From Rhizaria sp. SCN 62-66 (lineage: Eukaryota), in NCBI GenBank assembly GCA_001724265.1, contig MEDY01000030.1:62001-126000 (forward strand): a stretch of DNA of 64,000 nucleotides. Reading direction: 5' to 3'. The translations under genes and the position numbers were made by a program. Positions within the stretch are counted from its first letter, which is position 1. The number at the start of each line of letters is the position of its first letter. A model generated the notes under the pieces. It was not told the origin of the DNA and did not search any database. It saw only the letters and a program-made list of their open reading frames with translations. Positions 6,001-64,000 of the stretch are shown one piece after another.

Positions 6001-9000
6001 CTTGTATCGTCGTGATGCTCCTATCTTGCTTGTGGCGGGTGTGGCGGCCGCGATTTCTGCCGTTGTTGCCGACATGAACACGTTTCCAGGTATTCTCAAC
6101 ATCAGCACCAACTTCAACAATGCACTTCCTCTCACTGTGGCCGTGGGCGAAAACAGTGAGGACGTCTTGGGGGAAGTGTTGAAGCCGACTGACACGATAT
6201 CTGAGCATTGTTCCCATGGAAACAAGCCTCTTCCACATCAGTTGACGTCGTCGCAAGCGTCACGTGCGAACAAACTTGCTGAAGATCTCACGCGTACAGA
6301 TGTACGCAAGATGGCTGAACCGATGCTTTGCATGCTGCTTCCTTTGCCGGCGCCGCTACCACATATTTCTCTTGTGGCCAGTCCGAATGCCAATTTGAAC
6401 TCGCAATATGCCGTCCAGTATGCGCTTAAGAATCATCCGTTTGTCGTCAACAGTCAAAATTTACAGGTCTTTCTTAACTTTGATTGCGCATTGGAAATGG
6501 CGGCGCAAATCGATGTCAAAAGCCCACCTGAGCTCTCTCGACCTACCTCCCTCTGCTATTCCTATGTACAGTCTCCAGCTCCTATCAATCTCCCACAGTG
6601 TAAAGAGGCCTATCATGCGCGGCTGTTAGGAGTTAATGCAGCATCCGTTACGAAGGCGCGGCTGTCTGTCACACATGCTTTCAAGGTAGCCCTTGACTCC
6701 GTGCGCGCAGGCGCTGTGCCGAAAGACAATGCGGATGGCAATATTCAAACCAAGGTCATGGCCGCTGCTGAGGAGTTGTTTGGTTCAGGCACTGACTCGT
6801 ATTTTGACGGTGACGACAAGTACTCACTTACTCAACATCTCGCGGCGCGCTCTGCCTGCAATGATGCGGCAGCGACCCTCATAATCGCGCCCGCATTTTC
6901 ACGATTGATGAACACCGTGCCCCTGGTGCTCGCGCCCTGGCTCTGCGGTGCTGTGCATGCGCAGCTCGAGGTTGGACTCGATATCTTTCTGTCTCTCAGT
7001 GAGCATGAGACTCAACAGTCGAGGGCGCCCTGGAACATGCTGCATCCTACGTTGATTAACCCATTGCTGCGCAGCGTGGTTCCTTCTGAGGCGTTGATTG
7101 CGCTGGCTGCCGACGCACTCGAACTTGTCGTGCGCAAACTTCCCGTCGGTGGTATGCTTAAGCTGTGGCCTGTGAAGCCTGTTTTCCCGTTCACTCCACT
7201 CGAGTCAGCTGCCGCGATGCCGGCTATCACGACTGATACTGCCGGAGCATCCGCCCAATCTGCTGTCAACGGCGGTGAGAGCTCATTTGCGACTGCCGCT
7301 CTGCGTGCCTACACCAACGTACGCACCGCGCCGCTGGCAGAGATCGCGTACGAGCTCACAGCGCAGCTGCTGCTATTCAGTATGGTTTCAAGCACACCGC
7401 CGCAGTTGTCGGCGATGGCGTCTAATGCCATGGCAAGTGTGCTCTCACGTTGGTCCGGCTCAAACTGCACAGCGGAAGAGACATGCAACAACCTGCTTCT
7501 GTTGCTTAAGTCAGAGCGCGTGCACGCGCGTGCCGCCGGACTCAGCAAGCTTGCTGCTGCGGGTGACGAGCTGGCCAAACGCTTCCGCACCGACTGGGCG
7601 CGCGTCTTGGCGGCGCCAACGCGCCTATCGGGCGCCCTTCATACCAGCGACGCGCCCACTGTGGCGGCGCTCATCGGACACGCATCGCAGTTCTTGACGC
7701 CCTTGTGGTCTGTCTGCCCGCTTGAACGCGTCCCTCTGCCGCTGCAGCTGCTGGGCTATGTGGCTCTGGGGAACCCCTTGCTGGCCGCAACATCATTCGT
7801 CAACGAGGTCGTCCAGCTGTGGCTGCCGCGCTTTGCTCTCGCCCTGCTGTCTGGCGACGTCACCCCGCTGGTTCCCTTCTCCCGCTCAATGGACGATGTG
7901 AACGAGGCCGACGTCGAGGCAGCCCCCCGGCGCTGCGCCCTGGTATTCAACGTGTTCTCAGACATTGTGAAGCAAGTCGAGTCCGTGCAAGTCGACAATC
8001 TCCCCAAGCCGCAGTGTCAAGAGAGCGCTGCTCCAGAGGAACTTGAGGCCGAAGCGCTCACGCTGGCTCAAAGCACCGAGTGGGCGCATGCGCTGGGCTC
8101 AGTCCGTATGCTGTCGGCCGTTCTAGCGCCCGCTGCGGCTCAGCAGGCTGAGGAGCCCAAGGTCTCGGTCAACCCGTGGCTGTTGTGCGTGCCGCGCTCG
8201 CAGGTCGAGCACGCCCTGGCTGTGGCCGCCGCCGTCGGGCTTGCGGCCGGTTCGGCGCTGAGTGATGTGCACGGTGACGGCCCCGCCTCGGTGGCCGCAC
8301 GCGTGCTGTTCAGTGCCGTGAGCGACGCTGCGCACCCGCACGCAGACCTGGAGCAGTGGGCGCTGGAGGCCGCCGGCGCGAGCGGAGAGCTCACGCGCGC
8401 GCTCGCCGCCACTAAGCGCGACTGGACTCACAGTGTGCAGAACGCCCGCGATCAGGAAGCTGCCGCCGCTCAATTGCAGTAGCAGCAACAGCACCAGCAG
8501 CAACAACAACAGCAACAGCGTCGGGGTGGCATCGACTTTCTGTTGTCTGCAAGTGAGCGTGTTGCAATGGGTGGCGGCGTGGATGTCCGCTCCCGGCGCG
8601 CGCGGCGATCAAACGCCGCAGCTCGTGACAACAGTGAAGACTACGTTGAAGTCGACGATGACGAAGAGGAGGCCGATGGCGATGATTACGAGGGCAAGAA
8701 CAACCGCCACATGGGTGGGTCCAAGCGCGCACGCAAGGCGTCGCAGGCGCAAGCGGCACTTAGAGATGTTGGTGTGGTGAGTTTGGGTCCCGACGGAGAC
8801 GGTGTGTATGCCGGCAACGAGGAGGAGAGTGAAGAGTACGACAAGGAGTATCGCGCTAGTCGTGGCAATGATGGCAATGATCGACGCCGGCGCCCGCAGC
8901 GTCACAAGCAGGCTCCACAGCAGCGTCGCGATGTTAACTCCCGCGGCTGTGGCGACTGTAACGATGGTGGAGAAACCGGCACTCAGCTTTCCATGAGCTC

Positions 9001-9892
9001 TGAAGACAATGTGGCGCGTTATGCACGCGAAGCTCGATACGACCGCGATGTTCTTGCTGAGCAGTTTGACCGGCTTGAAGCGCAGATGGTCGAACTTCTC
9101 GTTCGACGGGACGACGCCAATTCGATTAATAATGTCGGCTTAGCCCAGAAGCTGACTGCCGAAGTGAATGAGCTGGAAAAATTGCAGGTTGTCATTGCGA
9201 GTGCACAGAAATTCTGTCATGACTCAAAGCGCGGGCAGCGCGTCACGCGTCACAAGGTTGCCACAGATCCCGGATCTGGCTCTGATTTCGTATACTCTGG
9301 CACGGACTCCGTCTCTGGTTCCGAAAACAAAGACGGCGACAATGAGGACGACGACGAGGACGACGGCGAGGACGACGATGACCTCGTGATTGTTGCCAGC
9401 GACAGCACCGATGGCGTCGGCAGCTCCTCCGCCTCCGCATCCGCCTTCTCTGGCAAGACGAGCGCGCGCAGTGACTTGTTTGCTGTCCGCGACGGCTCCG
9501 AGCAGACCGGCGGCCGCGGGCGCCGCAGCAGCGCCAACAAAAGAACTGCTCCGGAGCCCCCTCTTGCGGGGCCCCGTGGACGCTGGGACGGTGGCAGTGT
9601 TGGCAGCGGCGGTAGCGATAACCGTGGCGGCCATGGCATGCGACGGCGGTCCGCGGCGTCGCAGAAGCATCGGCGGCGGCGCGGGGCGCGGCTGCAGGAC
9701 TTTGTGGGCTCGGATGACGACGATGAGCAGAGCGGCGACGCCAACGACGACGACTACGACGACGATTTCGAGGAAGTTTGGGATGATAGCAACAACGCCA
9801 ACAGCAACAACAGCGACAACGGCAACGATGTGGACGAACAGGAGGAAGAGGACCTGAAGAGGGCGCTTCAGCTGTCGCTTCAGGATAACTAA
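2..9892 (+). CDS. Large ubiquitin-specific protease (peptidase C19, USP9/24/34-like) with a C-terminal UIM; 5' end lies outside the window; one in-frame TAG at 8480-8482
   Basis: The frame is open from base 2. Cys box YVGLVNAGSTCYMNSLMQQLF (~1160-1222), QMDASEF, LVLHLKRF, His box GVLVHWGQINSGHYYSYIRER (~2000-2062) and WVEFND are present. ORFs 98..8482 and 8543..9892 are in the same frame and separated only by a TAG inside a poly-Q tract. The protein ends EEEEDLKRALQLSLQDN-TAA (UIM-like). Confidence 0.9.
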
Positions 9893-10191
9893 ACAGGTGA
9901 CTGAGCCGTCTCGCACGTGTCGCACTGCATCGCAGTGTTGATACTCGCTATCATGGTTCCTCATGGCGAGGAGTAGTATGTCGCAACGTGTGCACGCACG
10001 TGCTTGAACGTTTTGATGGATTAGCTAGACAAAATAACTATCAAGTATATTTGAGTGTGACGATGTGGGTGGGTGTTGCTGCGTCGTGTGGCTGAGTGCG
10101 GGTGACGAGCGTACACACGCTATCGTATCACTCGCAGTTCTCAGAGCCATCGTAGACCACACCACAAACCGCACCACACTGGTCAAGCCGC

Positions 10192-10843
10192 ATGCTTATC
10201 TTGCGGCGGACAAAAATCGTTATCTAAATGACTCATGTAAACCATAAATAGATTTATTTTTACTTAAGCCTCCAACTGTGTGCCTCCTTGTGAGATATTT
10301 GCAACCCATATTTGAATATAAACTGACCCCGGATTTCGTTTAAGTCAAGTTGCGCGCGGCGATGCTCGAAGACACATGGCGCGACTTACACGTCTCGCTG
10401 CTGTGAGAAGCAGACAATCAACAAACTGTAACGCATTAGCGCAAGCACCAGCGACGACACCAGCAGCAAGGTCGGCGCAGACTGAGCGGGCGTGCATTGG
10501 TTACAGCACAGCTGACTATGGATCGTGACCTACTTGAGGTAGTCCTCCACAGCCATGCATGTTGAGTCAAAAAAGAGTTGAGAAATACTTTTATTATTGC
10601 AGGTTCTATGTGTTGTTTAATTATCATTCTCTATTTCACGCGATACATCACCATCGAAATGTGCTTAACCGTTCAATCCTGTTTCTTTTTTCGGTCCTAC
10701 TAACACTCCAATGTGTTCATATCTTGACATAAATCGTCATCTAATTGATTCATGTAAACCATAAATAGATACATTTTCACTTACAACTGTGCGCCCCCTT
10801 GTGAGATATCTGTGATCCATATTTGACCATTTGAAGAGACCCC
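10192..10843. repeat. Degenerate direct repeat pair of ~130 bp (~10192-10330 and ~10711-10843) in the intergenic spacer
   Basis: aaatcgttatctaaatgactcatgtaaaccataaatagat...caactgtgtgcctccttgtgagatat...ccatatttga aligns with aaatcgtcatctaattgattcatgtaaaccataaatagat...caactgtgcgcccccttgtgagatat...ccatatttga. Confidence 0.85.
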
Positions 10844-11011
10844 AATATTGCGCATCAAAGTGTCACTTAATGTCCTCCTTTGCTCTCTCGTTGCTTCCCT
10901 AGCCTTATTTCCCTTAGATAGAGTGCAGCGCACTTTGACCATTGAGGTCGTGTTTGCCTGAACTAATCCCCGTTGTTTTTGCTTCTGTGACCGTCCGAAA
11001 CACAAGGCTGT

Positions 11012-13663
11012 ATGGCATCTCCTTTGGGGGGGCCACGCCTCAACAAGGAAGGAGAGGATCCCGTGTCGGGTGCTCCCAGCCTCGATTACTACCAGAGTTC
11101 GACATTTGCGCAAGGTGTACGTTGTTTGTTATAGTGATTTGTCCTGTCATATTTATGTCATTGAGATTTTTTTTGTCCTATACTCTGTTAAGCTTCATAA
11201 ATCCTACCTCAATGGCTCACCTCCTGCCCGCTCATATCTTCTTTTTTTCAGTTGACGAGAGTCCCGCTCGCGTCGAGGAATCACTTCAACCAACGCATTC
11301 AGGGTCCGAAACAGCATCAGTAGGATAGCTCCGTGTTTTGGGTATCCCCCAACAACAAAGTTGTCATCGGCGGCGTCTTCGACGGCCATGGCGGCTACTC
11401 CGGCGCACTCGCGTCGTCGTCAGCTGCCGCCACCGCGCGCGCCTGGCTCGACGCCCGCGCCTCTCTGTGCGAATCCTGGACCGCGGCCGAGTGGCGCGCC
11501 GCTCTGCGCGAGCTCTTTGGCGCCATGCACGCCGGCGCGCGCATCTCACTGCTCCGCAACACGGTCCACATCCATGATATCACCGCGGGACCCGCGCTCC
11601 TCGCCCCGCAGCCCGCACCACCGGTGCCCACCGTCACCGCCGCCGTCACCGCCGCCACCACCGCTGCCGCTGCGGCTGCTGATGCCGAGGTTGCGGCTGA
11701 GAGTGCCGCGCTTGGCACCGGCGTTGCGGCGCAGCCCGTGCGCATGGTTGACGCGTCCCCGCGCCCGTGTGTGTCGCCCTGTGACCGTGACCACCCGTCG
11801 CCGGCTCTCAACTCACTCGCCACTACTCCTGTCACTGCCGCTGCCACTGCTGCTGTTGTTTCTGTGACGGCATTGGCGCCGGCGCTGTCGTCCGCCGGGG
11901 CCGCGCCGCCCGCCGCCGCTGCTCCCTGTGCCTGCGCATGCTGCCTCGCCTCTCAAGCCCCTGCCGCAGCCGCAACGTCCGCATCCGCATCAGCATCCGC
12001 GTTTGCCGCGGCCAGTAGCAGCAGCAGTCAGGGCCAGCTGGGCGGAGGCTCAACCGCGTCCGTTGCGCCCTCGATCGCTCCGTCTTCCGCCGCAGTCTCC
12101 TCAGCCTCGGCGTCCGTCGCCGCCGTCGCCACCCTGGCCGCGCTCCGTTCCCGCGCCGCCACACCAGTCAACTCGGCGACAAACACTCTACCTGGCACCA
12201 CTGCGACCGCGGTTGTGAGTGGGACTGCGAATGGTAACGCGCCGCCGTCGCCGCCCGTGTCTGCCCGCGCCCGCGCCGCCGCCGCCGCTGCGGCCGCTGC
12301 GACGCGCGAGGTGTTCTTGGGCCCGCGCCCGCTGCCTGCTGGCGCCAGCAACCAGAGCTGCGGCTGCGGAAGTGGGAGCAGCATGCCGAGCGACTGCACC
12401 AGTCCGCACATTGGCCCCAATAACCTTACTCCGAACACGAGCGGCGGCGGCGGCGTTGGCGGCGGCGGTGGCGGTGGGAGCGGCGGTGGCGGTGGGAGCG
12501 GCGGGGGGAGTGCAATTCCCCCGAATACCTCGAGTCTGTCGCTGTGCACGACCCCGCGCAACGGGGCAGGGCCGCGCGGGTCCGGTGTGTTTGCCTTTCC
12601 GTCCCCGCACAGCCACAGCGTCTGCCCCAGTGCGAGCGCCAACGCTCAGGCGCATGCGCACCCACACGGTGGCGGCGGCGCTGGCCCCGGGATCGGCGGC
12701 GGCGGCGCGAGCGAGCGTCTGTGCCCTCCGTCGCCGACACACTCTAATCTCTCAGCGTCTTCGACGACGGCGACGCTGACCCGCAAGCGCAGGTCGCTTA
12801 TCTCCCCGCCTTCGCCCGCATCCACCTCTGGCACTGGCACCGGCACTGGTATTGGCGCTGGCGCCGGCGCCGGCGCTGGGAATGTCAACGGTAGTAATGT
12901 GACTGGCGGCGGACCGAGGCCCGGAAGCGCCGCAGGGCCGCGCGCGTCCGGATCCTCACTGGGATCCTCCTCCCGCACTGGCGGGGCGCTGGGCGGACTG
13001 GGGCTGCTCGCGGGCGGCGCGCGCGCCTCGGGCTCAGCACTCAGCACCAGCCGCCGCGGCACTGGGGGCGGCGGCGGGGGCGGCGCGGGGGCTTTGCGTG
13101 GGCTAGGGCTGGGCGGTCCGCTCCCTCTTACGGCCGCGGCGGCGGCGGCGCTGGCGGAGATGGACGAAGCCGACGCTGCCGACGCGGTCGATGGCGAAGG
13201 CGATGAGTTCGAGCACCACGCTATGGACGACACCAACCACAGCCACGATCATGATTACGGTAACACGAACGCTGACGAGGATGAGGACGATGACGGGGCG
13301 GGCAAGAGAGCGCCCCCTGCGCGGCAGCGGCGGCGCGTCGAAAGCAGCTGTCCTGCACATGCCCACGCGCACACGCACGCACACAGTGGCGGCGCCGGAT
13401 GCGCTGTGTGCCGCTCACACTCGCATCCGCGCGCGCGCGCGCAGCCGACGAGCGCCAGCGCCAGCGCCAGTGTCAGCGGATCGAACTCGGACGCCGAGGG
13501 CGAGGGAGTCGCGGGGAACGGCGGCGCGCGCAAGCCGCGTACGCGCCCGCGCACGCGCGCTGGCACGCACACGCATGCGCACACGCACGCTACGCCCGCG
13601 GCCGCTCTCACTGCTGCGGAGACCGGCGCTGCCACTGCTGCCTCGGTGACGGCAGCGGCGGCG

Positions 13664-13697
<34 letters not shown>

Positions 13698-16600
13698 TGG
13701 TGAGTGCTGCTCTGGCCCCCGCGCCCGTGCCCGCTGTGGCCGCGGCGCTGCGCCCGTCGGTGCTTGTGGCACGGTCTCTGACGCCCGCCGTGACAATGGC
13801 CGCGCCCGGGACGGCTGCGAGCCGCGCCTCGACGCAGTCGCCCACTCGCTCTCACAGCCACGACCACGATCTCGGCCACGGTCACGGCCGCGGCCATAGC
13901 GGCCACGGCGGCTTCGGCCACAGCTTCGGTCTCAACCACGGCCACGGCCCCATCCTCAGCGTCAACATGCGGTCCCCCGCGCGGTCTCCAGCGCGATCCC
14001 CGGCGCGCTCCCCCGTGCGGTCCCCGCTGCTCGCGCCGGTCCGCGGGCCGCAGACGCCCTCGGTGGTGGTCCCCATGGCGGCGCGCGCGCTGCGGCGCAC
14101 GATGAGCGGCGACGACGACGAAGACGAGGATGAGATGGATTTCACATTGCCGCCACTCGCCATGCCGCCGCCCGGCACGCCGCCGCTGCGCGCGGACTCC
14201 CCCGACCGCGCCGCGCGCATGTTCAGAGGCGCGAACGCCGCCACCGCTGCCAACCCCGCCGCGGCCGCCGGGGGACACGCGCAGCGGCCGCAGCGGTCGC
14301 CGACGGTGGTGCCGCGCTCCGGGCTGGCGCTGGGCGGGATGCACGCGGTCAACGTGCTCGCGCCGGCGTCTGTGTCGATGGGCTCGCCAGTCCCGTTTGG
14401 CGGTGCGTCGCCCTTCGCATGCGCCTCACGCTCAGCCAGCGGCGGCGGCCACGGCCTCGGCTTTGGTGGCAGTTTCGGCGGCGGTGGCAGCAGTAGCGGG
14501 GTGACGAGCATGGGCAGTCCACTGCCAGTGAGTTTCGCGATGCCCGCGCCGCTGCCGCTCTCGTCCGTCACGTCCGACTCCGCCAACGACTCGGCGCAGT
14601 CCGCCCCCACCGCTCCCGGCGGCGGCGGCGGCGGCGGCACTAGCGCTGGCGCTGGCGCCGAGGACGTGACTGAGGTGGACACGGATACAGGATACCGCGC
14701 CGCGCCGCTGCTCCGTGCTCTCGCCCGCGGCGGCCGTGTCTCCTCTCTGCCGCCCGAGGCCTCGCACTCGCAGTCGCCGGGCCAGGCCCAGGGCCAGTCT
14801 GCGGCCGCGGGCGGGCGCGCGATGTTGGATCGCGACGGCGACGGGATCAACGGCAATAACGTCGCCGCGGGCAACGCCGACGGCGACGGCGCTGCGGCTG
14901 CTGCTGCGGCGACGGAGGGCATCGAAGCGCTCTCGTTGTCGCCCACCACGCGCGCTCGCTCCGGCGCCGGCCACGGCCTCGGCATCGGCGCTAGCCTCGG
15001 CATCGGCGTCGGCGCGAGCGCGGGCGCTGGCGGCGTTGGCGGCGTCGTCGGTGACTCTGCGCGCGCTGCGGTGACGCGCTCGCACAGTCTCAACTCGCGC
15101 GTGCTGCCGCCCTCGCAGTCTCTCATGATGGACGGTGACGGCAACGACCACGATCTCGAGGAGATGCCGCCTGCGCTCGCCGCGGTGGGCTCGCTGCCCG
15201 CCTGCGCCGCCACGGTCGCTGCGGACGTCGTCGCTGCCACCGCTGCCGGTGCCGGTGCCGGCGTTGGATCCAGTGCGAGCCTACTGCGGGCGCTGGGGCT
15301 GCCGTGTCTGCGCTCAGACGGCACGCACGAGCCATCTTGCTGCCACAACAGCCACACTGCCGCTGCTACTGCGGCGGCAGCGGCGGCGGCGAACGCGGGC
15401 GCGGCTGTGGCTGAGGGCCTGCGGGCCAGCTCGCTGCTGCCGCCACTCCACGGCGGCGGCCGTCGCAGCGGCGCCAGTGACTGTGCTAATGCTGCTGGTG
15501 CGCTCTCTGCGGGTGCACTGCAGAGCTGTGGCAGCGCCAGTGGAGGCTCGTCGTCGTCCTCGTCTTCTGCTTGTGTCTCTGTCGCCGCATCTGGGTTCTC
15601 TGGTAAGCCCGGCTCGGTCACGGACCCGGAGGCTTCGTTCCCGTCACTGCCGTCGTCGTCGTCGTCGTCATCGTCGTCATTGCAGCAACCGCAGTCCAGC
15701 TCCGCTCTTGTCGCTGCTGCTGCCGTCGCTACTGCTTCGACCTCAATCGACTCCGCGTCAGTGCCGAGTCCAGTCGATCTCGCGCGTTCGTGTCGGTTGC
15801 CCGCTGCGCCCGCCTCAGCCGCGGCCCCCGCCGTGTCGCAGCCCGGTTTAGCGGTTGACTTGGCGCCCAGCACTGCCGAAGACGACGAGGACGCCGCCGC
15901 CGCGGCCGCCGTGCTCTGGGCGTTGCGCTCATCCTTCGAGGAACAAGCGCTGCCACGCGTGCTCGAAGACCTCACCGCCGCCGCCGCAGCGACCGCCGCC
16001 GCCGCGACGGCCGCGTCCGCCGCCGCAGCCGCAGCGGACTGCAGCGGCGAGACCGTCGCCGTCACCGTGGATCCCGAGCCCCCGACCGCGGCGGCTATCG
16101 CCGGCGCTCTGTCGTCAGCGTGGTGGTCGTCGCCCGTCAGCCACAGCTGGCTGGCCACGGCGAGCGCGCCCGCTCGGTGGGTCGGCCGCGGCCGCGCGGT
16201 CGACGCGCGCGGGATCGTGCGCGAGCTCTTTGGCGCCAACAGCGGGGAACCGGTGCACGGAGGCACGACGGCCTCGCTCGTCATTGAGATCCGCGCACCG
16301 CCCTGCGTCGCTCCCGTCACACACGGCGGCGCGAACAACAACAGCATGGGTGATAATAACTACGACAATAATGCGGCTGATGACCCGCTGTTGCGCGTGA
16401 TTGACTACCGCTGCATTGGCGCTGCGGCGACACCCAAGCCTGGCGCCAGATTAAACCCGTCGTGCGCGGGCGCCGCGATCCTGGCTCGCCGCCGCGCCGC
16501 CGCCGCCGCCGAGGTCGCGGCCAACGCCGCCGTCGTCGCCGCCGCCGCCGGCCTGGCGCCAGGACCGCTTGACTCGACTGCGAGCTTCAGCAGCCCCGGC

Positions 16601-17770
16601 GCGAGCGGCGACTCCCCGTGTCCGACCGCCGCTGGCGACGCTGAGGCCGAGGCCGTGCCGCCCGACGCGTTGCTGTACCTGTTCCAGGACCGCGGGCTGG
16701 GCCCCGGCGTCGCGGCCACGCTTATCTGCGCCAACGTCGGCGACTCCACGGCGTGCTGCGTCACGGAGCCGCTGCCAAAGGCCAAACCGCTGCTCCTCGC
16801 ACAACGCGCCGCCGCGGCGTCAGCAGCGACGGCGGCAGCCTCCGCGACTGGCAACGGTAACGGCACTATGGCCGCCGCCGTCGCCGCCGCCGCTGGCGCT
16901 GGCGCTGCTGCTGGCGCTGCTGCTGCTGGCGCGGTGGCGGATGACCCGTGGCTGGTCCCGCGCCTGCTGTTCCTCAGCGAAGACCACGGTCCCGACAACC
17001 CTCGCGAGTACGCACGCGTGATGGCGCTGCCGGAGGACACGCACCCGGTGAAGCTGCTGTTTGTGTACGACCGCCGTGACGCCGGCGCGAAGCACCTGTG
17101 TCCGCGCGTGTTCGGCCCGGATGGGCAGCTGGATCGGCGCATCCTCGCCAGTCCGTGGTCGTTTGGGCTGCATCCAACCAACGTGCGGCAAGAGCCCGCA
17201 GCATACGCTGTGACGCCCGCGGGCGTGGGCGTGGACGCGACGTGCATTGCCATGACGCGCGCACTGGGCGATCTCTTCTCGCACCAGTTCGGGCTCACCT
17301 GGGAGCCGGCGATCTCGGTGACTGATGTGCCGGTGTACTGCGCGTACACCGTCTGCGTCGCCTCGGACGGCGTGTGGGACTGCTGGGGCTACCCAGACTG
17401 GGCCGTGGCGACGATCACGCTCGTAAAGAAGCACACACGGCAGTGGCACAAGCGCGAGCGCGAGCTGGAACGCGAGCGCGGCGCGGCGGCGGCGCCGACG
17501 GCCTCGCTCAGCGGCAGCGGCAGCGGCGTCGGCTGCAGCCCCCCCGGGTCCACCACCGGCGGCGGCGGTGTCGTCGCAGTGGCGTCGCCGGTACTGCTAA
17601 CCCGCGCGGCGGTTGAGGGCGCGGCCGTGCTGCCGCCGCAGCCGGACGTGGCCGCGCAGGCCGGTGCGGGGCTGATGCAGATGAGCCACGAACGCGCGGT
17701 GCAGAGTTTCGGTGCGCGTGGGTATGACGACAGCACGCTCGTCGTCTGGCACGGTGACGCGTATGTCTAA
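11012..17770 (+). CDS. PP2C/PPM-family Ser/Thr phosphatase with a very large low-complexity insertion; exons 11012-11116 and 11252-17770; in-frame TAG at 11321-11323
   Basis: ATG at 11012 gives MASPLGGP...TFAQG, followed by a phase-0 GTACGT...TTTTCAG intron (11117-11251). Exon 2 reads LTRVP...GPKQHQ[TAG]DSSVFW...GVFDGHGG. The later PPM motifs HGGTTA, ANVGDS, SEDHGP, MTRALGD, VASDGVWD and DDSTLVV occur in order. The gene ends in TAA. Confidence 0.88.
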
Positions 17771-18511: not shown

Positions 18512-21421
18512 TCACTGCTGCTTAAAGCCCTGTCCACTCTCCTTTTCCTCCTCAATGCGTGCGATAAAGTTCGCCAGTGGCTCAGGCTTGGGCTCCTCGC
18601 CAATCACACCGCGCGCGCGCACGCTGACAGCGCCCGTCTGCGCCTCTGCCTCACCGACAACGAGGATGTAGTTATATTGCAGCGCCTGCGACATGCGCAC
18701 CTGCTTCGCAAGCGTCAACCCGGCGTCGGCGGCGTCGGCGTAGAAGCCCTTATCGCGCAACGTCTTGGCGACGGAGCCCGCGTAGTCTGCGTAGCACGGC
18801 GCGACGGCGCAGACGGCAACATGGCGAGGCGAGAGCCACAGCGGCAGACGGCCAAGCGTGTGCTCCAGCACAACGGCGAGGAAACGCTCGACGGAGCCGA
18901 GGATCGCGCGGTGGATCATCACGGGCGTCTGCTCCGTGCCGTCGGCGGCGCGGTACTTAAGCCCGAAGCGGCGCGGCAGGTTGAAATCGAGCTGGATTGT
19001 CGCGCACTGATGCAGGCGGCCCAGCGCGTCGCGGACAGTGACATCCACCTTAGGCCCGTAGAACGCGCCGTCGCCGGGGTTCAACCCCCACTTGCCGGCG
19101 CCGACCGCGGCGTCGAGGCACTCGGCGAGGGTCTGCTCCGCGGCGTCCCACCCGGCCAGCTCGCCGATGTACTTCTCGGGTCGCGTCGACAGGCGGAAGT
19201 GAAACGGGAAGCCGAACGCGCCGTAGACGTCGCGGATGAACTGCACGCAGTCGGCTAACTCACCGCGAAGCTGTTCAGGCGTACAGAAGATGTGCGCGTC
19301 GTCTTGGGAAAACGCGCGCACGCGGGTGAGGCCGGACAGCGCGCCGGAGACTTCATTGCGGTGTAATCCGCCGAAATCAGCGACGCGGAGCGGGAGATCG
19401 CGGTATGAATGCGCGCTGGCGCCGAAGAGAACGCAGTGGCCGGGACAGTTCATTGGCTTCAGAGCCTGCGTCGAGGTCGCGTTGTCCAGACTGCCGTTAC
19501 CACTTACTGGCACGGCAGCTGCGGTTCGACTGTGGCTAGGACTATTGTGACCGTGACTGCAAGAGTGTTCCTCAGTCGCTGCGGGCTGAGTGCCCGCGGC
19601 GAAAAGACCGTGGGCGGCGCCAGGAGCGGCAGCCAGTGCGCCAGTGCACTGCAGCTCCTCGTCCCGCAGCGGCGCCTGCGGCTCAGCCTCAGTAGAAACA
19701 GCATTAGCAGTCTTAACAGTCGCACTCGCTGTCGCAGGAGCGGGCTTAGAGGGCGTAGCAGCAGCAGATGAGGGGTCTGATGAGTGCCCCGCAGAGACGT
19801 AAAACATGTCATCCTGGTACTTATCCCAGTGCCCCGACTGCTGCCACAGCGACTTATCAAACACCTGCGGCGTCCGCACTTCGGAAAACCCGCGGCGGCG
19901 GTAGTGGCGGCGCATGAACTCCACTAACGCGTTGTACACACGAGTGCCGTGGGGGAGGAAGAACGCGGAGCCGGGTGAAACGGGGTGGAACATGAACAGC
20001 GACAGCTCGCGTCCTAACCGGCGGTGGTCAGCCTTCTCGGCGTTCTTGACCGCGGTTTGCCAGTCTGCGAAGAGTGAGTCGGACGGAAACGCCATACCGT
20101 ACACGCGCTGAACAGTGCGCGACTCGTGGGGCGGAGACTGCAGCGCACCGCCGGCCCCCGCGGCGGCGCCCGCGCCCGCGACTGAGGCCGCCAGCGCGGT
20201 CGCGGCCACGTCGCCCGCGGGGGAAGCGGCGGACGCGGCGGCGGCGGCCAGCGCGGCGGCGACGTCGGCGCCGGCGGGGACGGGCAAAGGAGCGTGCAAT
20301 AGTGAAGATGAGGTCTTGTGGGCAATGATCGCGGTCTTGGGGATGCGGCCTGTGGACGGGACGTGGGGGCCGCGGCACAGGTCGACGAGGGGACCGCAGC
20401 GGTACAGTGACACAGTCGGCTCCTCAGAAGCGCTCGACGCAGACGCAGAGGCGGAGGCAGAATCTGCGTTTGCATTAGTCGCGCAGGGGGAAGAGACTCC
20501 CGCGGCGGCAATGCGGTCGAGAATCTGCTGCTTGAACGGATTTCCGGCAAACACCTTCCGCGCAAACGCGATCGGCACGTCAATGCGCTCAAACGGCTGG
20601 TCGAACGTCACGGCCTGGCGGCACACCTTCGTGACTGCAGGGAGATCATCGAGCGAGATCGTGCGCGCCGCGCCGGTGGTTTTGTCGTGCAGGAGTGCGT
20701 CATAGAAGAACCCGCCGTCAGCGAGCGCGGGGCCGTCGGAGAGGTGGACGAGTGCGTCGCGGTATTGGAACTCGAGGGCTTGGCCGAGAACGTGTGCCGC
20801 AGAGTGCCAGAGCGTCGAGGAACCCGTGGGGGTGGTGAAGTCCTGCAGGTCAACCACGGCGCCGGGGGCTAACGAAACCGGGAGAGGACGGGAGAGGTCC
20901 CAGGGCTCGCCGGCGACAACGGCGACCAGTGCAGAGGCAACCGCGGAGGCTACGTCGGGCGATTTAGCGGCGGCAGAGGCGGGCAGAGAGGCGAGAAGCG
21001 ACTGCGCGGTGGTCACGCCCGGCTCGGCGCTGACCTCGCACAGGGGCGCGCCGTTAAAGGCCAGCGACACGCGCACGGGCGCGGGGGAAGCAGCGGACGC
21101 GTGAGGGGGGTTGGCGGCCACGAACGAGTCCCACAGGGCCATACGGGTGAGCCACTGAGTCGGCAGCGCCTCTTTCGGCAGCGAGCCTGTGAATAAGGGA
21201 AAGAGATAAAGACAAATAAAGATATTAAAAGGATACATTAAAGTGCGGTTTACGATGCATATCACAATTGAAAGTATAAAGCGTGATGGCGACGTACTGT
21301 AATAGGTCTTAGCAGACTTTTGTTGGGAGGCAGCAGGCGTGGGAGCAGCAGAAGAAAAAGTGCGCAGTGCCGCTGACCGCAGAGGAAGTGCATGCGCGCG
21401 ACGTGCAAATCGGCTCAACAT
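18512..21421 (-). CDS. Threonyl-tRNA synthetase, probably mitochondrion-targeted; exons 21421-21298 and 21186-18512
   Basis: Arg/Ser/Ala-rich presequence MLSRFARRAHALPLRSAALRTFSS. Motifs: TGS WDLSRPL, editing HSAAHVLG and DLCRGPHV, DHRRLGREL, LWQQSGHW, LKPMNCPGHC, LHRNEVSGALSGLTRVRAFSQDDAHIFC, GDGAFYGPK, QCATIQLDF, IHRAILGSVERF. The gene ends in TGA. The intron is GTACGT...ACAG at 21297-21187. Confidence 0.95.
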   Translation of the reverse strand: MLSRFARRAHALPLRSAALRTFSSAAPTPAASQQKSAKTYYSTSPSRFILSIVICIVNRTLMYPFNIFICLYLFPLFTGSLPKEALPTQWLTRMALWDSFVAANPPHASAASPAPVRVSLAFNGAPLCEVSAEPGVTTAQSLLASLPASAAAKSPDVASAVASALVAVVAGEPWDLSRPLPVSLAPGAVVDLQDFTTPTGSSTLWHSAAHVLGQALEFQYRDALVHLSDGPALADGGFFYDALLHDKTTGAARTISLDDLPAVTKVCRQAVTFDQPFERIDVPIAFARKVFAGNPFKQQILDRIAAAGVSSPCATNANADSASASASASSASEEPTVSLYRCGPLVDLCRGPHVPSTGRIPKTAIIAHKTSSSLLHAPLPVPAGADVAAALAAAAASAASPAGDVAATALAASVAGAGAAAGAGGALQSPPHESRTVQRVYGMAFPSDSLFADWQTAVKNAEKADHRRLGRELSLFMFHPVSPGSAFFLPHGTRVYNALVEFMRRHYRRRGFSEVRTPQVFDKSLWQQSGHWDKYQDDMFYVSAGHSSDPSSAAATPSKPAPATASATVKTANAVSTEAEPQAPLRDEELQCTGALAAAPGAAHGLFAAGTQPAATEEHSCSHGHNSPSHSRTAAAVPVSGNGSLDNATSTQALKPMNCPGHCVLFGASAHSYRDLPLRVADFGGLHRNEVSGALSGLTRVRAFSQDDAHIFCTPEQLRGELADCVQFIRDVYGAFGFPFHFRLSTRPEKYIGELAGWDAAEQTLAECLDAAVGAGKWGLNPGDGAFYGPKVDVTVRDALGRLHQCATIQLDFNLPRRFGLKYRAADGTEQTPVMIHRAILGSVERFLAVVLEHTLGRLPLWLSPRHVAVCAVAPCYADYAGSVAKTLRDKGFYADAADAGLTLAKQVRMSQALQYNYILVVGEAEAQTGAVSVRARGVIGEEPKPEPLANFIARIEEEKESGQGFKQQ

Positions 21422-25331: not shown

Positions 25332-28300
25332 ATGGAGCACATCGGCACCTACACGGGCGCCGAACTGCTTGTGCGCACGGACTTTGGTGAGGAGATTAAG
25401 GTCCCGCACGGCGCGGGCACGTATACTTACCCCGACGGTCACTTCTCGCTCGAGAGCGCCAACTGGTCCCACGGTCGTGTCACTGGCCACGGCACCCTGC
25501 GTCTCGGTCCCCAGCCCTCAACTTCCACCACCGACGCCACTGCATGCACGACTGACGCCACGGGCGCGCGGTATACCGGCGACTTTGTTCGCGGTCAGAT
25601 GACTGGCCAGGGCGAGCGCGTGTGGGCCGACGGCTCCGCCTACCGCGGCGGCTTCCTCCGTGGCGAGCCCCACGGTCCAGGCGTCTGGGCGGGCGCGCGC
25701 GCGGGCGAGCTCTACCAGGGCGAGTTTGCGCATGGACGCCGCCACGGCCCGCGCGCTGTGCTGCAGAGTGCGGATGGATCGGTCCACGCTGGCGGGTTCG
25801 CCGATCACCAGCGCTCGGGTTTCGGTGCTCACATGTACGGCCCAGCGCCGCCCGTCGCACTCAACACAATCACCCCTGCCGATCTGCAGAGCGCCGCGGG
25901 CAGTGATGTGGCGGCCAGCGGCGTGGGCCGTGCGTCGGCCGCGGGCGAGTGGGCTGCCAGCGCGCTGGTGGGCGCCGGAAACGCCGTCGCAGTGCCATTC
26001 ATCATCAGCAACAGCAGCGACAGCCACAGCCACGGTCACAACGGCAATGCCGCTGATGCCGGGAGCGCTGACGCTGACGCCACTGCTGCTGGAACTGAGT
26101 GGCAGGGCAGCGCGCTGCTCGTCGGCACTACCTGTAGCAACTCGCAGGCGCATGCGCAGTGGCAGCCGCAGGCGCAGTAGCAGGCGCTGATGCACAGCTC
26201 TGCCGCCATCTCCTCCCGCGCGCCCCGCGCTCCCGCCACTGCTGCTCCTGCAGTCTCCGGCGCCGTATACGCTCAGCGCGCCCTTGTCCCTGTCCCGGGG
26301 CCGGCCCCCGCGTCCAGCACTGCGAATGAGCCTGCTGCGGTGACCGCGGCGGTCACCGCCGCGGCGGCTGCAGCGGCCGCTGTGGCCGACGGTGCGTTCG
26401 TGCTCACGACGCACACGAGCGCGCACCGTGGCGCCGCGAACGAAACTGAGGGCGAAGGCGACGCTAGTTTGCGCGTGCTGCTGCCCCCCGCGCTGCCACC
26501 TGCGTCAGCGCTGGCGTCCGCAGTCTCAACCACCGGTCCAAACTCTGTTGCGTCTGTTTCTGCGGCGGTCTCAGCGCCTCCGCTGCCGCCGCTGTTAGAA
26601 CTCGTGGCCCGCCGTTACGCCACGCTGCACACACTTGCCACCGCGGCCGCCGTCGCTCCACCCGCCGCCGCGACCGCCGGCGCCGCCGCCGCAGCCGCAG
26701 CCTCAAACGCGTCCGCCACTGCGACTGCTGCTGGGACTGCTCTGCCCCGGCCGACGTCCCCCGCCGCCATCGCCGCCGCTGCGGCTGCCGCAGCACCGCC
26801 CGCGCTGCCCGCTTTCGCACCGCTGCCGCTGCTCCCGCTGCTGAGCGCGCGCGCGACGGCCGCCGCTCTGTGTGCGGCCGCGCACTTGCCGCATTTCGCG
26901 CGCGCCGTGGCCGCCGCTTCCGCCGTGGCCGCCGCAGAGACCGCCGCGGCTGAGGCAGCGGCCGCGAGCAGTAACGTGCGCGGGGGGCCCCGGACGCAGC
27001 GCGCGGCTCTGACAGAGGCTATGGAGCGCGCGCGCGGCGCGTGGCGCGGGTCTGACCCCCGCATCCGCCTGAGCGCGCACGCGTACGCCGCCGTTAACAC
27101 TGATGCTGAGGCGGAGGCCGTGGCGGACTGGGGCGGGCAAGCGCTCGCGCGTCCCGCACGCGTACACATCGCCGCTGCCGCTGCAGACGAGTCAAGCCTC
27201 GGTCTCGCGAGTCCCGAAGACGACTTCATCGGCGGCCGTGATGACGACAGTGGTAGTGCTGCGGTGCTGTCCCTACGGTCGCCCGCGCTTGAGGCCGCGC
27301 TGGCCCTCGCCGCGAGCGCACAGCAGCAGCAACTGCAGCTGCCGCGCGACGCCCCCGCGCGCTCACGCATCGCCGTTGCTGCCGCGCTCGCCGCGTCCCT
27401 CGCGCTGCTGCCCGCCGGCGCTTACGCTCCCTCCGCCGCCGCTGCTGCGGCCGCGCCGGCGCCGGCTCCGCTGCAGCGCCAGCCGTCCTCCGCTGCGATG
27501 GGCCTCTCGCACCCCGTGACGCCGGTGCGCGGCTCCGCAGCCGGCGGCGGCGGCTTCTTTGCCAGCCCCGTCGCCGCCACACCAGCAGCGAACGCAGCAC
27601 TCGGCGCCGCCGCCGCCGGTGGTGGTGGGAATGCGCTCCCGCTGCAAACGTCTGCGCGCGGTGGTGCGCGGCTCTCGACCACGGCGGCCGCTGCAGCCGC
27701 CGCCGCTGCGGCCGCCGCTGTGCCGCCGCCCGCGCTCACGCTGCCGCTGGGCGCCGAAGTGCTTTACGGCCGTTTGCTCCCGCTCTTTGTCGCAGTGCAG
27801 CGACCCGTGCGCAACGCTGCCGTCTCTGTACGGGGTCCGCCCGCGGTCGCAACGGCGGCGAGCACGGCGCAGGCGCTGTGTGCAGGCGAGAGCGGGCGTT
27901 TTACGGCTTTCTCGCTGCTGCCGCCGCTGCCCGCGCTTGTAGATGAAAAAGAGCGCCGCCGCCGTGCACCGCTGCTCGCCGCGCTTCTGGGCGCTTTCGC
28001 CTCGCCCGCCGTCTTCGCTGACCCTGTTCCCGCCTCGTCATTGTCCTCAGCTCCCGGCATTGGCGCTGGTGCCGTGGCCGGTGCGTCTGGCAGCGCTACA
28101 GCCACAGCCGCTGCCGCTGCCGCCGCTGCTGCCTCAGCTGCTGCTGCGGCGGCGGCGGCGCGGCCCGAGGCTAGCGAAGGGACTGTGACGACTGAGGCGC
28201 AACTCGCAGCGCTGACAGACCGGCGCGCGGCCGCGCTATGCTCTTGCCCGCGCCAGGCGGGCTCCGTGCTGCGCGCGCGCGTGCTAGCGCTGCTGTTCCA

Positions 28301-41191: not shown

Positions 41192-41878
41192 TCATGCGTA
41201 TTCAGCCTGTGCGGCCGCGACTTCCTCCATCTCCTTGCGCGCGCGCAGAACAAGCTCCGCGCGGTAATACGCGGCCAGCGCGCGCTCGCGGTGCTCCGCG
41301 GCGGCCGCGGCGGGGAGGCGGCCGACGACGCGGGCGGGATTGCCGGCTAAGATGGAGAACGGGGGAGCGACGAAGCCATCGGGTACGCGTGCGTGGGGCA
41401 TTACGCGGACGCAGGAGGCCAAAACGGCGCGGGAACCGACGACCGCGTCGTGCATGACGTGGCAGAGCGGGCCGAGCGACAGGGCCTCGATGACGCAGCC
41501 TTCTTCAACTATGCAGAGGTCGCCGACAGTCAACGGTGCGTGGACCACAGTTCCATCCGGTGCAGTCTATGAACACGGTCGCAAAACGGTATTCGACTCG
41601 ATGAGACAGCCTTCGCCGATGGAGACGGGCGCGAGGTCACCAATAATCTGCGCGTTGGGCGCAATGACGGTATGGCCGCTAGTGCAGGTGACGGAGCCGG
41701 TGATGAGGGACGGGACGCCGATGTGGTTCAGCGACTTGGTGCTCATGTAGCTAGCGCTCGCTTCACCCGCAGAGAGAAGGACCTGGGAGAAGGAAGAGTC
41801 ACGGGAAGCGAGCGGGCCGTACACCGCCAGCGGGGGCGGGGCAAACTCGAACGCGCGCGGTGCGTCGCAGCTGTCCAT
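41192..41878 (-). CDS. DCTN5: Dynactin subunit 5 (p25), left-handed beta-helix; in-frame TAG at 41569-41567
   Basis: GHTVIAPNAQIIGDLAPVSIGEGCLIESNTVLRPCS[TAG]TAPDGTVVHAPLTVGDLCIVEEGCVIEALSLG...VVGSRAVL...VAPPFSILAGNPA is colinear with p25 (GKTI...IIRGDLANVRVG...VIRPP...PLHIGDHVFIEEDCVV...VVPPFTVFSGCPG, recalled). The gene ends in TGA. Confidence 0.85.
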
Positions 41879-45889: not shown

Positions 45890-45922
<33 letters not shown>

Positions 45923-62700: not shown

Positions 62701-64000
62701 CATACCGCCGCGACTGGCGCTGCTGAGACGGCCACGGAGTTTACGCAGACTCACGCGTACGCCGACGCAGCGCGTGCGCCCAACGCAAACGCTGGACTCC
62801 CACTTTAGCGGCCCTACAACTTGCCCAGCCACCAGCGTTCACAGTCGCTTTCTCACGGCAACACGAGCAATGCGGCAGCCGCCGCTGCGGCGGCCCAGGC
62901 CGCGGCCGCTGCACTGCGCTCACAGTCTCAGCTCCCGTCGGGGTTACACTCGCAACTACACTCGATCGCGCCCTCGCCGGCCGTTTCCGCCTCTGCCGCC
63001 GTCGCGCCCACCGTCGCCGCGACGGCTGCGGTGACTGAGGCGCCGTCGGGCACTGCGGCGCTGGACGCGTTTCTGAACATGAACATGAACATGAGCCAGA
63101 ACGTGAGCGCGAACATGAGCGCAGCTGCAGGGAAAGCGAACACAAACGCTGCTGGGGGCGACGGAGCTGTTCTGGCCCCGCTCGTGGCAGCTGCACTGAG
63201 TCAGCTGCAGACGCAGCAGTCGTTGTTGCTGCACGTGTTGGAGCGACAGGACCGCATTCTACTGCCGAATACTGCCGCTAGCGTGAATAACACTGCGCAC
63301 AATACGGTGGTTGAGGCAGAAGTCAAGCCGCATCTGCTTCAGGTTAAGACACCAGTAAAGGAACGCACACCTGCACCCTCGCCCAAAGCACAGTCTTCAT
63401 CTGTTCACGCATCCCCTGCTCCTGTCGCGGTGCCTGCTGTCGCTGACGCACGCAGTGCAAAGCTGTCGCTGCCGCTTCCGCTCACTCCGGCATCTGCATA
63501 CGCCTTTGCACACGGCCATGACAGCAAGCGTAGCTTCAACTTTGCACCTGCACCTGCTATTGCTGAATCGCCCGCTGCGACTGCTGCTCCGGCCGCGCTC
63601 GCAGTGCCCTCGGCTCCCGTCTCCACAGCGCCCTCCCCTAGGGCCTCTGCTTCCCCAGCTGCTGCAGGCGCGGCGACACAGCCAAACGCTGCGGGGGGCC
63701 GGCCGCATCACCCTGCGTTCCGTTCCCCTTTGTCGCCTTCAGCGGCTGAGCGCGAGCGCCAGCGCGACCGCGAGGAGCAGCTGAGGCTGCAACAGCTGCA
63801 GCAGCTGCAGCTGCAGCGTGCCGGCGACAGCGAGGAACAGAGCTCGCGGCTGCAGAGTGACCGCGAGTCTGAGCTCGGCGGCTTGACAAGCGACGACGAA
63901 CGCGGCCAAACTTTCCTTGCGCTCGTCGACGATGACGTTGCTGACTCCAGTGACGACGACGCTTACTCGCGTTTTGCTCGCAAGAATGAGCCGCGCAATG
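59761..64000 (+). CDS. Coiled-coil, low-complexity protein of unknown function; in-frame TAG at 62806-62808; runs off the window end
   Basis: ATG at 59761 marks the AT-to-GC transition. There is a long E/R/A heptad-like region at ~60840-61945. After the TAG the same frame stays open for the remaining ~1190 nt with the same Ala/Pro/Gln-rich codon style. Confidence 0.75.

What the first reader, a model, noticed from the sequence alone, without database searches (positions are those of the whole stretch)
11300..11395. TAG sits in catalytic motif 1 of the PP2C phosphatase
After splicing, the gene reads GPKQHQ[TAG]DSSVFW...VFDGHGG. In PPM phosphatases the metal-binding Asp of motif 1 is normally preceded by Glu or Gln (MED, NED, NQD). 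The TAG therefore occupies a constrained position compatible with Gln. If it were a stop, the protein would end after 58 aa despite ~2150 intact downstream codons carrying the remaining PPM motifs.
Basis: partly seen in the sequence, partly recalled or inferred. Interest (0 to 1): 0.8.

Follow-up and report, generated by a model that had tools for sequence, protein, structure and literature searches.

The report
TAG read as amino acid
An uncultured, GC-rich wastewater protist appears to translate the stop codon TAG as an amino acid (glutamate or glutamine) while still stopping at TAA and TGA, so standard gene calling truncates many of its proteins.

Summary
TAG at 11321-11323 is codon 59 of a two-exon PP2C gene. 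It sits directly before the metal-binding Asp of motif 1. A spliced cDNA contig joins 11116 to 11252, exactly the predicted intron, and runs through the unchanged TAG.

The TAG is not isolated. Four more in-frame TAGs lie in a USP, a MORN protein, dynactin-5 and a coiled-coil gene. Across 17,260 in-frame codons there are 5 TAG, 0 TAA and 0 TGA. All 10 ORF ends use TAA or TGA.

The best reading is that UAG is a rare sense codon in this organism's nuclear code. The amino acid is unresolved:
- Both alignable TAGs fall on Glu. The PP2C column is E in 11 of 11 nearest orthologs and 41 of 45 family members, with Q in 4. The closest dynactin-5 relative also has E.
- Two other TAGs sit inside Gln runs.

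No tRNA or eRF1 gene could be examined. UAG-only reassignments are known in Iotanema, a rhizarian and phyllopharyngean ciliates, so this is a new, non-ciliate member of that kind. It would be a new code variant if UAG means Glu.

The parts
11012..11116 (+). PP2C exon 1 (35 codons, MASPLGG...TFAQG)
   Evidence: Translation. The cDNA contig X5 record 21 covers 10955-11116 and joins to 11252.
11117..11251 (+). Intron of 135 nt, GTACGT...CAG
   Evidence: table 5 shows a joint 11116->11252, GT..AG, side 162, in the cDNA library X5. The intron is retained in DNA contigs of X2 and X4. If unspliced, an in-frame TAA lies at 11198.
11252..17770 (+). PP2C exon 2 (2,172 codons plus TAA stop). It carries motifs 1-2 at the N-terminus, a low-complexity insert of about 1,590 aa, and a catalytic C-terminal half.
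   Evidence: Pfam PF00481 hits aa 1999-2049 at 30.6 bits against a cut-off of 20.3. Ortholog P0122 is 69% identical and ends at the same C-terminus.
11321..11323 (+). In-frame TAG, codon 59, at the residue before the motif-1 Asp
   Evidence: The column is E in 11 of 11 orthologs and E 41 / Q 4 of 45. The TAG is kept in runs X5, X2 and X4.
11324..11326 (+). GAT, the invariant Asp of motif 1 (metal ligand by homology)
   Evidence: D25 is invariant in A3. It aligns to the D of MED/NED in 4n0g_A and 2iq1_A.
11381..11395 (+). DGHGG (motif 2)
   Evidence: D44 G45 H46 G47 G48 are invariant in A3.
16178..17767 (+). C-terminal catalytic half (GGTTA, NVGDS, DHGP, TRALGD, ASDGVWD, YDDS)
   Evidence: Motif positions. 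The search with this part gave 310 hits at E<=1e-3.
8480..8482 (+). In-frame TAG in the USP/UCH gene (2-9892, stop TAA), context AAQLQ[TAG]QQQHQQQQQQQQ
   Evidence: X4 contig 7900-10678 is identical.
26178..26180 (+). In-frame TAG in the MORN-repeat gene (about 25329-31892, stop TGA), context QPQAQ[TAG]QALMH
41567..41569 (-). In-frame TAG inside the dynactin subunit 5 domain (gene 41192-41881, stop TGA), context LRPCS[TAG]TAPDG
   Evidence: It lies within the alignment to solved dynactin-5 (E 1.4e-24). The relative P0272 (73% identical) has E at that place. The database's own call for this gene, P0273, stops at the TAG.
62806..62808 (+). In-frame TAG in a coiled-coil/low-complexity gene (59731 to beyond 63999), context AGLPL[TAG]RPYNL
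   Evidence: No homolog was found to align it.

Best explanation
The window comes from the nuclear genome of an uncultured, GC-rich, intron-poor eukaryote found in wastewater and bioreactor metagenomes. [quoted passage not shown]

The PP2C gene (11012-17770) is an intact, expressed, spliced gene. Its codon 59 (UAG) supplies the residue before the metal-binding Asp of motif 1. UAG is a rare sense codon here: 5 of 17,260 codons, about 1% of either Gln or Glu codons.

The inserted residue is Glu or Gln. My odds are Glu about 50%, Gln about 40%, other or ambiguous about 10%.

The inferred mechanism was not shown. It would be a tRNA with anticodon CUA, of Glu or Gln identity, or near-cognate reading by tRNA-Gln. 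Either would act together with an eRF1 that recognises UAG poorly but still recognises UAA and UGA.
For: Shown:
1. Five in-frame TAGs lie in five of about eleven genes, each with coding sequence on both sides. Two sit inside recognised domains: PP2C motif 1 and dynactin-5.
2. In ten coding segments totalling 17,260 codons there are 5 TAG, 0 TAA and 0 TGA. No frameshift was needed.
3. ORF ends are 4 TAA, 6 TGA and 0 TAG of 10. The PP2C and dynactin-5 ends coincide with those of relatives.
4. A spliced cDNA contig carries the TAG unedited. Two other studies' DNA contigs keep it, one of them a diverged strain whose only difference in this gene's coding part is a synonymous Lys change at 11311.
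5. Sequence upstream of the TAG is conserved as protein. IQG.K.HQ matches orthologs, with G18 and K20 invariant.
6. The database holds the dynactin-5 gene only as a fragment ending at the TAG (2 member sequences, 2 contigs). No full-length near-identical form was found.

For Glu: both alignable TAGs fall on E.

For Gln: 2 of 5 TAGs are flanked by Q on both sides. That context holds for 12 of 521 Gln codons and 2 of 776 Glu codons.
Against: - Only five codons from one 64-kb window were examined, and only two of them are alignable.
- No tRNA gene lies in the window. No whole genome is held, so tRNA(CUA) and eRF1 were not examined.
- There is no protein-level evidence.
- Transcript evidence covers one TAG only. 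It is a single contig at depth 8 from a library labelled ambiguously.
- TAG is 33-fold rarer in frame than base composition predicts (5 against 165). It may be decoded inefficiently or still act partly as a stop.
- That all five internal stops are TAG is not significant on its own, since composition predicts about 71% TAG.
- Zero TAG among 10 ORF ends is only weakly significant. Several of those gene models (CFA20-like, SDR, MORN) are unverified.
- Stops flanked by long open frames also occur in antisense frames of these GC-rich genes, with all three stop types (16 on the minus strand). The argument therefore rests on the gene frames, not on the raw scan.
Confidence: 0.85

Rival explanations
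1. The organism uses the standard code with leaky termination. UAG is still mainly a stop, and these five sites are tolerated premature stops that near-cognate tRNA-Gln reads through at useful efficiency. Local context, such as Gln codons on both sides, would help this.
For: In-frame TAG is 33-fold depleted against composition. Two of 5 TAGs are in a Q-TAG-Q context. The abstract of PMC13192750 reports that a QXQ motif promotes readthrough of premature stops in yeast, with Gln inserted. Three of 5 TAGs are followed by C.
Against: Three of 5 sites are not QXQ. Two of those lie in functional domains where a mostly truncated product would lose the whole catalytic or structural part. No ORF of 10 ends in TAG. 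The TAG is retained in a diverged strain. Near-cognate readthrough would insert Gln, whereas both alignable columns are Glu.
Confidence: 0.09
2. The TAGs are assembly or sequencing errors, or the genes are pseudogenes.
For: A window from a metagenome assembly could carry errors. Chance in-frame stops in this composition would mostly be TAG.
Against: Contigs from other studies carry the same TAG at 11321 (X4 identical, X2 diverged). X4 also spans 8480 without any difference, and a cDNA contig carries 11321. There are no frameshifts and no TAA or TGA in 17,260 codons. Coding signatures and homology continue on both sides of the TAGs.
Confidence: 0.03
3. Real transcripts avoid the TAG through another acceptor, another start, or RNA editing.
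For: Only one cDNA contig was seen. Other isoforms cannot be excluded.
Against: The one spliced contig uses 11116->11252 and reads through an unchanged TAG to 11665. The next in-frame ATG (11525) lies beyond DGHGG. The residues upstream of the TAG are conserved in orthologs. A gap-free alignment around the dynactin-5 TAG leaves no room for an intron there.
Confidence: 0.03

Closest known systems
Iotanema spirale (Fornicata) nuclear code: UAG = Gln, UAA and UGA stop (PMC5304391, abstract read). It corresponds to NCBI table 15 by my recollection.
   Same: Only UAG is read as sense. UAA is kept as a terminator. It is a non-ciliate protist.
   Different: It is an unrelated lineage known from a transcriptome. 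Here the genome is very GC-rich and UAG is very rare (5 of 17,260 codons). The two alignable sites point to Glu, not Gln.
Rhizarian exLh (Sainouroidea): UAG = Leu, UAA and UGA stop (PMC5304391, abstract)
   Same: The meanings of UAG and UAA are decoupled in a non-ciliate.
   Different: Leu does not fit the invariant Glu column of PP2C motif 1 or the Glu in the dynactin-5 relative.
[quoted passage not shown]
   Same: UAG-only reassignment found by mining metagenomic and public data. UAA is retained as a stop.
   Different: Those are ciliates. This window is a 64-kb multi-gene stretch at 54-74% GC in 2-kb windows, with spliceosomal GTACGT introns. That ciliate genomes look otherwise is my recollection. 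In the paper UAG is widely used as sense. Here it is rare.
Codes with UAG = Glu: peritrich ciliates (UAR = Glu; PMC11687900 introduction), Blastocrithidia nonstop (UAR = Glu, UGA = Trp; abstract start of PMC12153298 in the listing), and the ciliate PL0344 (UAA and UAG differ; PMC10553269 title and abstract start only; the assignments Lys and Glu are recalled)
   Same: UAG may be read as Glu.
   Different: In all of these UAA is also reassigned. Here UAA ends 4 of 10 ORFs and never occurs in frame. UAG = Glu with UAA and UGA both as plain stops did not turn up in my four searches.
PPM/PP2C phosphatases (Pfam PF00481), for example Arabidopsis PP2C 37 (4n0g) and human PPM1K (2iq1)
   Same: Motif 1 (x-E-D), DGHGG, GDS, DG.WD and DD motifs are present. 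The family profile matches solved PP2Cs at E 2e-28.
   Different: The window's protein belongs to a distinct subfamily (G-A-K-x-x-Q-E-D, PTNVRYEPAVYAVTP, TCIAMTRALGDFYAHQFGLT). It also has a low-complexity insert of about 1,590 aa between motif 2 and the rest, partly shared with the 69%-identical relative P0122.

Membership tests
PPM/PP2C phosphatase (PF00481) | Profile match above the curated threshold | tested here: met
   Exon-2 protein: 30.6 bits against a cut-off of 20.3, E 3.5e-7, C-terminal stretch only. Four orthologs: 80-89 bits. Family profile against PDB PP2Cs: E 2e-28.
PPM/PP2C phosphatase (PF00481) | Motif 1, acidic pair ending in the metal-binding Asp | tested here: inconclusive
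   The Asp is present (11324-11326, invariant column). The residue before it is the TAG codon. The motif is complete only if UAG is read as Glu or Gln. The N-terminal piece alone gives no Pfam or PDB hit.
PPM/PP2C phosphatase (PF00481) | Motif 2 DGHGG and the C-terminal metal-binding Asp motifs (DG.WD, DD/DN) | tested here: met
   VFDGHGG, NVGDS, ASDGVWD and YDDS are present and fall on conserved family columns.
PPM/PP2C phosphatase (PF00481) | Phosphatase activity | not testable with these tools
   No assay was possible.
UAG-only stop-to-sense nuclear genetic code | In-frame UAG in genes at positions where relatives have sense codons | tested here: met
   Five sites. Two are aligned to relatives. 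Three lie in low-complexity sequence and are not alignable.
UAG-only stop-to-sense nuclear genetic code | UAA and UGA absent in frame and used as terminators | tested here: met
   0 TAA and 0 TGA in 17,260 codons. ORF ends are TAA 4 and TGA 6 of 10.
UAG-only stop-to-sense nuclear genetic code | UAG not used as terminator | tested here: inconclusive
   0 of 10 ORF ends. The sample is small and some gene models are unverified.
UAG-only stop-to-sense nuclear genetic code | UAG present in mature mRNA (not edited or spliced out) | tested here: met
   Shown for 11321 only: one spliced cDNA contig.
UAG-only stop-to-sense nuclear genetic code | Cognate tRNA with CUA anticodon | not testable with these tools
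   No tRNA in the window. No genome is held. No further contigs of the organism were found.
UAG-only stop-to-sense nuclear genetic code | Altered eRF1 stop-codon recognition | not testable with these tools
   eRF1 is not in the window.
UAG-only stop-to-sense nuclear genetic code | Identity of the inserted amino acid from many conserved columns or from peptides | tested here: inconclusive
   Two alignable sites are both Glu. Two sites sit in Gln runs.

The most novel reading that the evidence does not exclude
UAG encodes glutamate while UAA and UGA both remain ordinary stops. That nuclear code was not in the papers I found. It would have arisen in a very GC-rich, non-ciliate protist, possibly stramenopile-related. 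It would have been caught at an early stage, when UAG makes up only about 1% of Glu codons. On this reading the TAGs inside Gln runs are recent CAG-to-TAG changes that are tolerated there.
Probability: 0.42. Interest if true: 0.9.

Novelty: new member of a known kind. Interest (0 to 1): 0.74.

Why it matters
**Evolution of the code.** Changes in which UAG and UAA get different meanings are rare. The cases I found in print are two non-ciliate protists and a few ciliate lineages. A further independent case in a GC-rich genome, with the new sense codon still very rare, would be a natural test bed for how a stop codon is captured: codon disappearance against an ambiguous intermediate.

**A possible new code.** If UAG means Glu, the code itself is new.

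**Annotation.** Five of about eleven genes in this window are cut by standard-code gene calling. The public protein call for dynactin-5 ends at the TAG. The organism recurs in wastewater and bioreactor data of six studies from 2015 to 2025, so its proteome in public databases is systematically truncated.

Tried and rejected
**Searches that found nothing useful**
- The N-terminal 103-110 aa of exon 2 alone gave no PP2C hit against Pfam or PDB. Against the protein database with 'longer' lengths, none of 681 candidates scored. The motif assignment had to come from orthologs found with the C-terminal half.
- The single metagenome scan, run with the ThrRS protein, returned 80 ordinary ThrRS loci at 31-54% identity and none from this lineage. 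A look at 21 of them showed ordinary adjacent genes and nothing relevant.
- Two scans of genome contigs (dynactin-5 alignment; USP N-terminus) and one of viral contigs found nothing. No further DNA of the organism or its 70-75% relative could be read.
- Earlier findings of the scan: nothing.
- tRNA scan and Rfam on the window: nothing. No whole genome is held.
- I read the ORFs around the CFA20-like gene in search of a further informative TAG. None was placed in a conserved exon, and I did not pursue it.

**Readings rejected**
- Pyrrolysine or another special residue: not supported by anything seen, and an E/Q column does not suggest it.
- Leu, as in the rhizarian exLh: does not fit the invariant Glu column.

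**Organism placement**
- A tree of 49 of the 120 listed ThrRS hits used all the best unnamed ones plus a hand-picked sample of named ones. It ran as the quick method because the careful run did not finish.
- It puts the window with unnamed metagenome sequences, next to the oomycete TGS-less ThrRS (SH-aLRT 96).
- This is a weak single-gene hint of stramenopile affinity, with compositional bias flagged for the window's row.

**Depth**
- Depth spikes at 9268-9438, 9781-9951 and 12688-12858 come from low-complexity repeats shared with other organisms. I did not interpret them.
- Stretches without RNA cover are not evidence of anything.

**Supplements**
- Supplementary files of the papers were not opened. 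They may list further UAG-only lineages.

Full report
**What is there**

The window is eukaryotic. Coding parts run at 65-74% GC and spacers at 48-57%. Single-exon genes are very long and introns are few. All three introns seen start with GTACGT.

The gene in question has these parts:
- ATG at 11012.
- Exon 1 at 11012-11116 (35 codons).
- A 135-nt intron at 11117-11251.
- Exon 2 at 11252-17770, ending in TAA.

TAG 11321-11323 is codon 59, in the context GPKQHQ[TAG]DSSVFW...VFDGHGG. It is followed by 2,148 open codons.

**Is it a PP2C, and is the TAG in motif 1?**

Pfam sees PP2C only in the C-terminal part (30.6 bits against a cut-off of 20.3). The N-terminal 103-110 residues alone find nothing.

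A full-library search with the C-terminal 530 residues gave 310 relatives at E<=1e-3. One ortholog, P0122, is 69% identical and ends at the same C-terminus. Many shorter members of the subfamily have intact N-termini.

Aligned with 11 of them:
- The window's N-terminus matches on both sides of the TAG. G18, K20, D25 and DGHGG are invariant, and Q23 is nearly so.
- The TAG column is Glu in 11 of 11.

Of the 150 listed hits, 45 carry the pattern G.K...xD...DGHG. In those the column is E in 41 and Q in 4. The other 105 are fragments or did not match my pattern.

A profile of 29 members aligns this stretch to the MED of Arabidopsis PP2C 37 and the NED of human PPM1K (E 2e-28 and 1e-27). The TAG therefore occupies the residue before the metal-binding Asp of motif 1, as claimed. 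In this subfamily that residue is normally Glu and only occasionally Gln.

**Is the TAG real and expressed?**

The stretch occurs in runs from six studies of bioreactor, wastewater and sludge samples, 2015-2025. I laid four runs on 7900-13000.
- A contig of a cDNA library (X5, depth 8.1) joins 11116 to 11252 (GT..AG, 135 skipped). It continues to 11665 with only two differences (11485, 11518). The predicted splice is used and the TAG is in the mature RNA, unedited.
- DNA contigs of two other studies keep the intron and the TAG. X4 is identical and also spans the TAG at 8480 without a difference.
- X2 is a diverged strain with 12 substitutions and two insertions in 9621-11383. None is in the TAG, and its difference at 11311 is a synonymous Lys change.
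- PolyA-RNA contigs (X7) also cover parts of the low-complexity insert (11507-11714, 12101-12806).

This rules out an assembly error. The limits are that it is one contig, one site, and a library whose label is ambiguous.

**It is not one gene**

Four more in-frame TAGs lie in gene frames:

| Position | Gene | Context |
|---|---|---|
| 8480 | USP/UCH | QLQ[TAG]QQQHQQQQQQQQ |
| 26178 | MORN-repeat | QAQ[TAG]QAL |
| 41569 (minus strand) | dynactin subunit 5 | LRPCS[TAG]TAPDG |
| 62806 | coiled-coil | LPL[TAG]RPY |

The dynactin-5 TAG lies in the middle of the domain. The alignment to solved dynactin-5 runs through it (E 1.4e-24). The public database's own call for this gene stops at the TAG (P0273).

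In ten coding segments (17,260 codons) there are 5 TAG, 0 TAA and 0 TGA, and no frameshift was needed.

The ten ORF ends use TAA four times and TGA six times, never TAG:
- TAA: USP, PP2C, condensin Cnd1 after its intron 38442-38614, and the SET protein.
- TGA: ThrRS, DinB-like, MORN, dynactin-5, a CFA20-like ORF and an SDR ORF.

**Caveats**

- Base composition alone predicts that about 71% of chance in-frame stops would be TAG, so 'all five are TAG' is not significant by itself.
- Zero of ten ends is a small sample, and some gene models are unverified.
- Stops flanked by long open frames also occur in antisense frames of these GC-rich genes, with all three stop types.
- TAG in frame is 33 times rarer than composition predicts (5 against 165).

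The weight of the case lies in four points. Five of about eleven genes, some surely needed, carry a TAG with conserved coding sequence on both sides. There is no other defect in those genes. The TAG persists across strains. It is present in spliced RNA.

**Which amino acid?**

For Glu, the two alignable sites both point that way:
- The PP2C column.
- The dynactin-5 site, where the closest relative (P0272, 73% identical) reads EPCH-E-II-DG against RPCS-TAG-TAPDG, with no gap between the anchor PC and the site. The latter is a variable loop and weighs less.

For Gln, two of the three unalignable sites are flanked by Gln on both sides. That context holds for 12 of 521 Gln codons and only 2 of 776 Glu codons. 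Gln is also the commonest outcome of UAG reassignment (introduction of PMC11687900).

The contexts lose much of their force if UAG codons are young. A C-to-T change of CAG in an unconstrained Gln run yields TAG whatever TAG means. The same run already tolerates a His (CAC) interruption. The rarity of UAG fits such a young state.

Weighing both models against the prior, I put Glu at about 50%, Gln at about 40%, and other or ambiguous at about 10%. Leu does not fit the invariant Glu column.

**Mechanism**

This part is inferred, not shown. It would be either a tRNA with anticodon CUA or near-cognate tRNA-Gln, together with an eRF1 that spares UAG but still recognises UAA and UGA. No tRNA or other RNA family is in the window. 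No genome is held. No more DNA of the organism or its relative could be fetched.

**Rival: leaky termination**

A rival is leaky termination in a standard-code organism. The abstract of PMC13192750 reports that a QXQ context promotes Gln insertion at premature stops in yeast, and two of the five sites are QXQ. Three are not, and two of those are in essential domain positions. I give this rival about 9%.

**The organism**

The ThrRS next door has no close named relative. The best hit is an unnamed 75% match, and named hits are about 56% identical.

In a quick tree of 49 of the 120 hits, it groups with unnamed metagenome sequences beside the oomycete TGS-less ThrRS. That is a weak hint of stramenopile affinity.

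**Comparison with the known**

UAG-only reassignments with UAA kept as a stop are described for:
- Iotanema (Gln) and a rhizarian (Leu) (PMC5304391, abstract).
- Phyllopharyngean ciliates (Leu and Gln) (PMC11687900, abstract and introduction).

UAG = Glu is described only together with a reassigned UAA: in peritrichs and Blastocrithidia, and in PL0344 by my recollection.

My four literature searches turned up no report of such a code in a GC-rich wastewater protist, nor of UAG = Glu with UAA as a plain stop. Supplements were not seen.

**Verdict**

The residue may be Glu rather than Gln.
- The finding is the visible tip of a probable new, independent UAG stop-to-sense reassignment.

Noticed in passing
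window 11580-16170 (+): The PP2C carries a low-complexity insert of about 1,590 aa (Ala/Gly/Ser/His runs) between DGHGG and the rest of the catalytic domain. It is in frame, has high GC3, is covered in part by polyA-RNA contigs, and is partly alignable with the 69% relative P0122. Other subfamily members are only 244-576 aa long.
   Followed up: partly
window 18512-21421 (-), intron 21187-21297: This threonyl-tRNA synthetase has an N-terminal presequence-like start and no TGS domain. An in-frame 111-nt AT-rich intron (GTACGT...CAG) leaves the ORF open. The gene groups with unnamed metagenome sequences next to the oomycete TGS-less ThrRS.
   Followed up: partly
window 38442-38614 (+): The condensin Cnd1 gene has a 173-nt intron (GTACGT...TAG). 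The ORF's apparent TGA at 38535 is intronic, and the gene ends at TAA 39428. All three introns seen in the window share the 5' site GTACGT.
   Followed up: partly
window 42344-57667 (+): A single open frame of 5,107 codons encodes what looks, from reading the translation, like a PHD-finger/bromodomain/SET histone methyltransferase. Pfam was not run on it. It contains no in-frame TAG.
   Followed up: no
window 31890-31895 (+): The MORN gene ends in a tandem TGA TGA.
   Followed up: no
window 9268-9438, 9781-9951, 12688-12858: Strong depth spikes and many chimeric joints appear in all four runs laid. They are caused by acidic or low-complexity codon repeats shared with other organisms' contigs.
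   Followed up: no
window 21948-22766 (+) and 58573-59601 (-): A CFA20-domain ORF hints at a flagellated or ciliated organism. There is also a short-chain dehydrogenase ORF with a presequence-like start. Both gene models are incomplete, with likely further exons.
   Followed up: no
whole window: Near-identical or slightly diverged copies of this stretch occur in bioreactor, wastewater and sludge runs of six studies from 2015 to 2025. The organism is therefore a recurrent member of such communities.
   Followed up: partly
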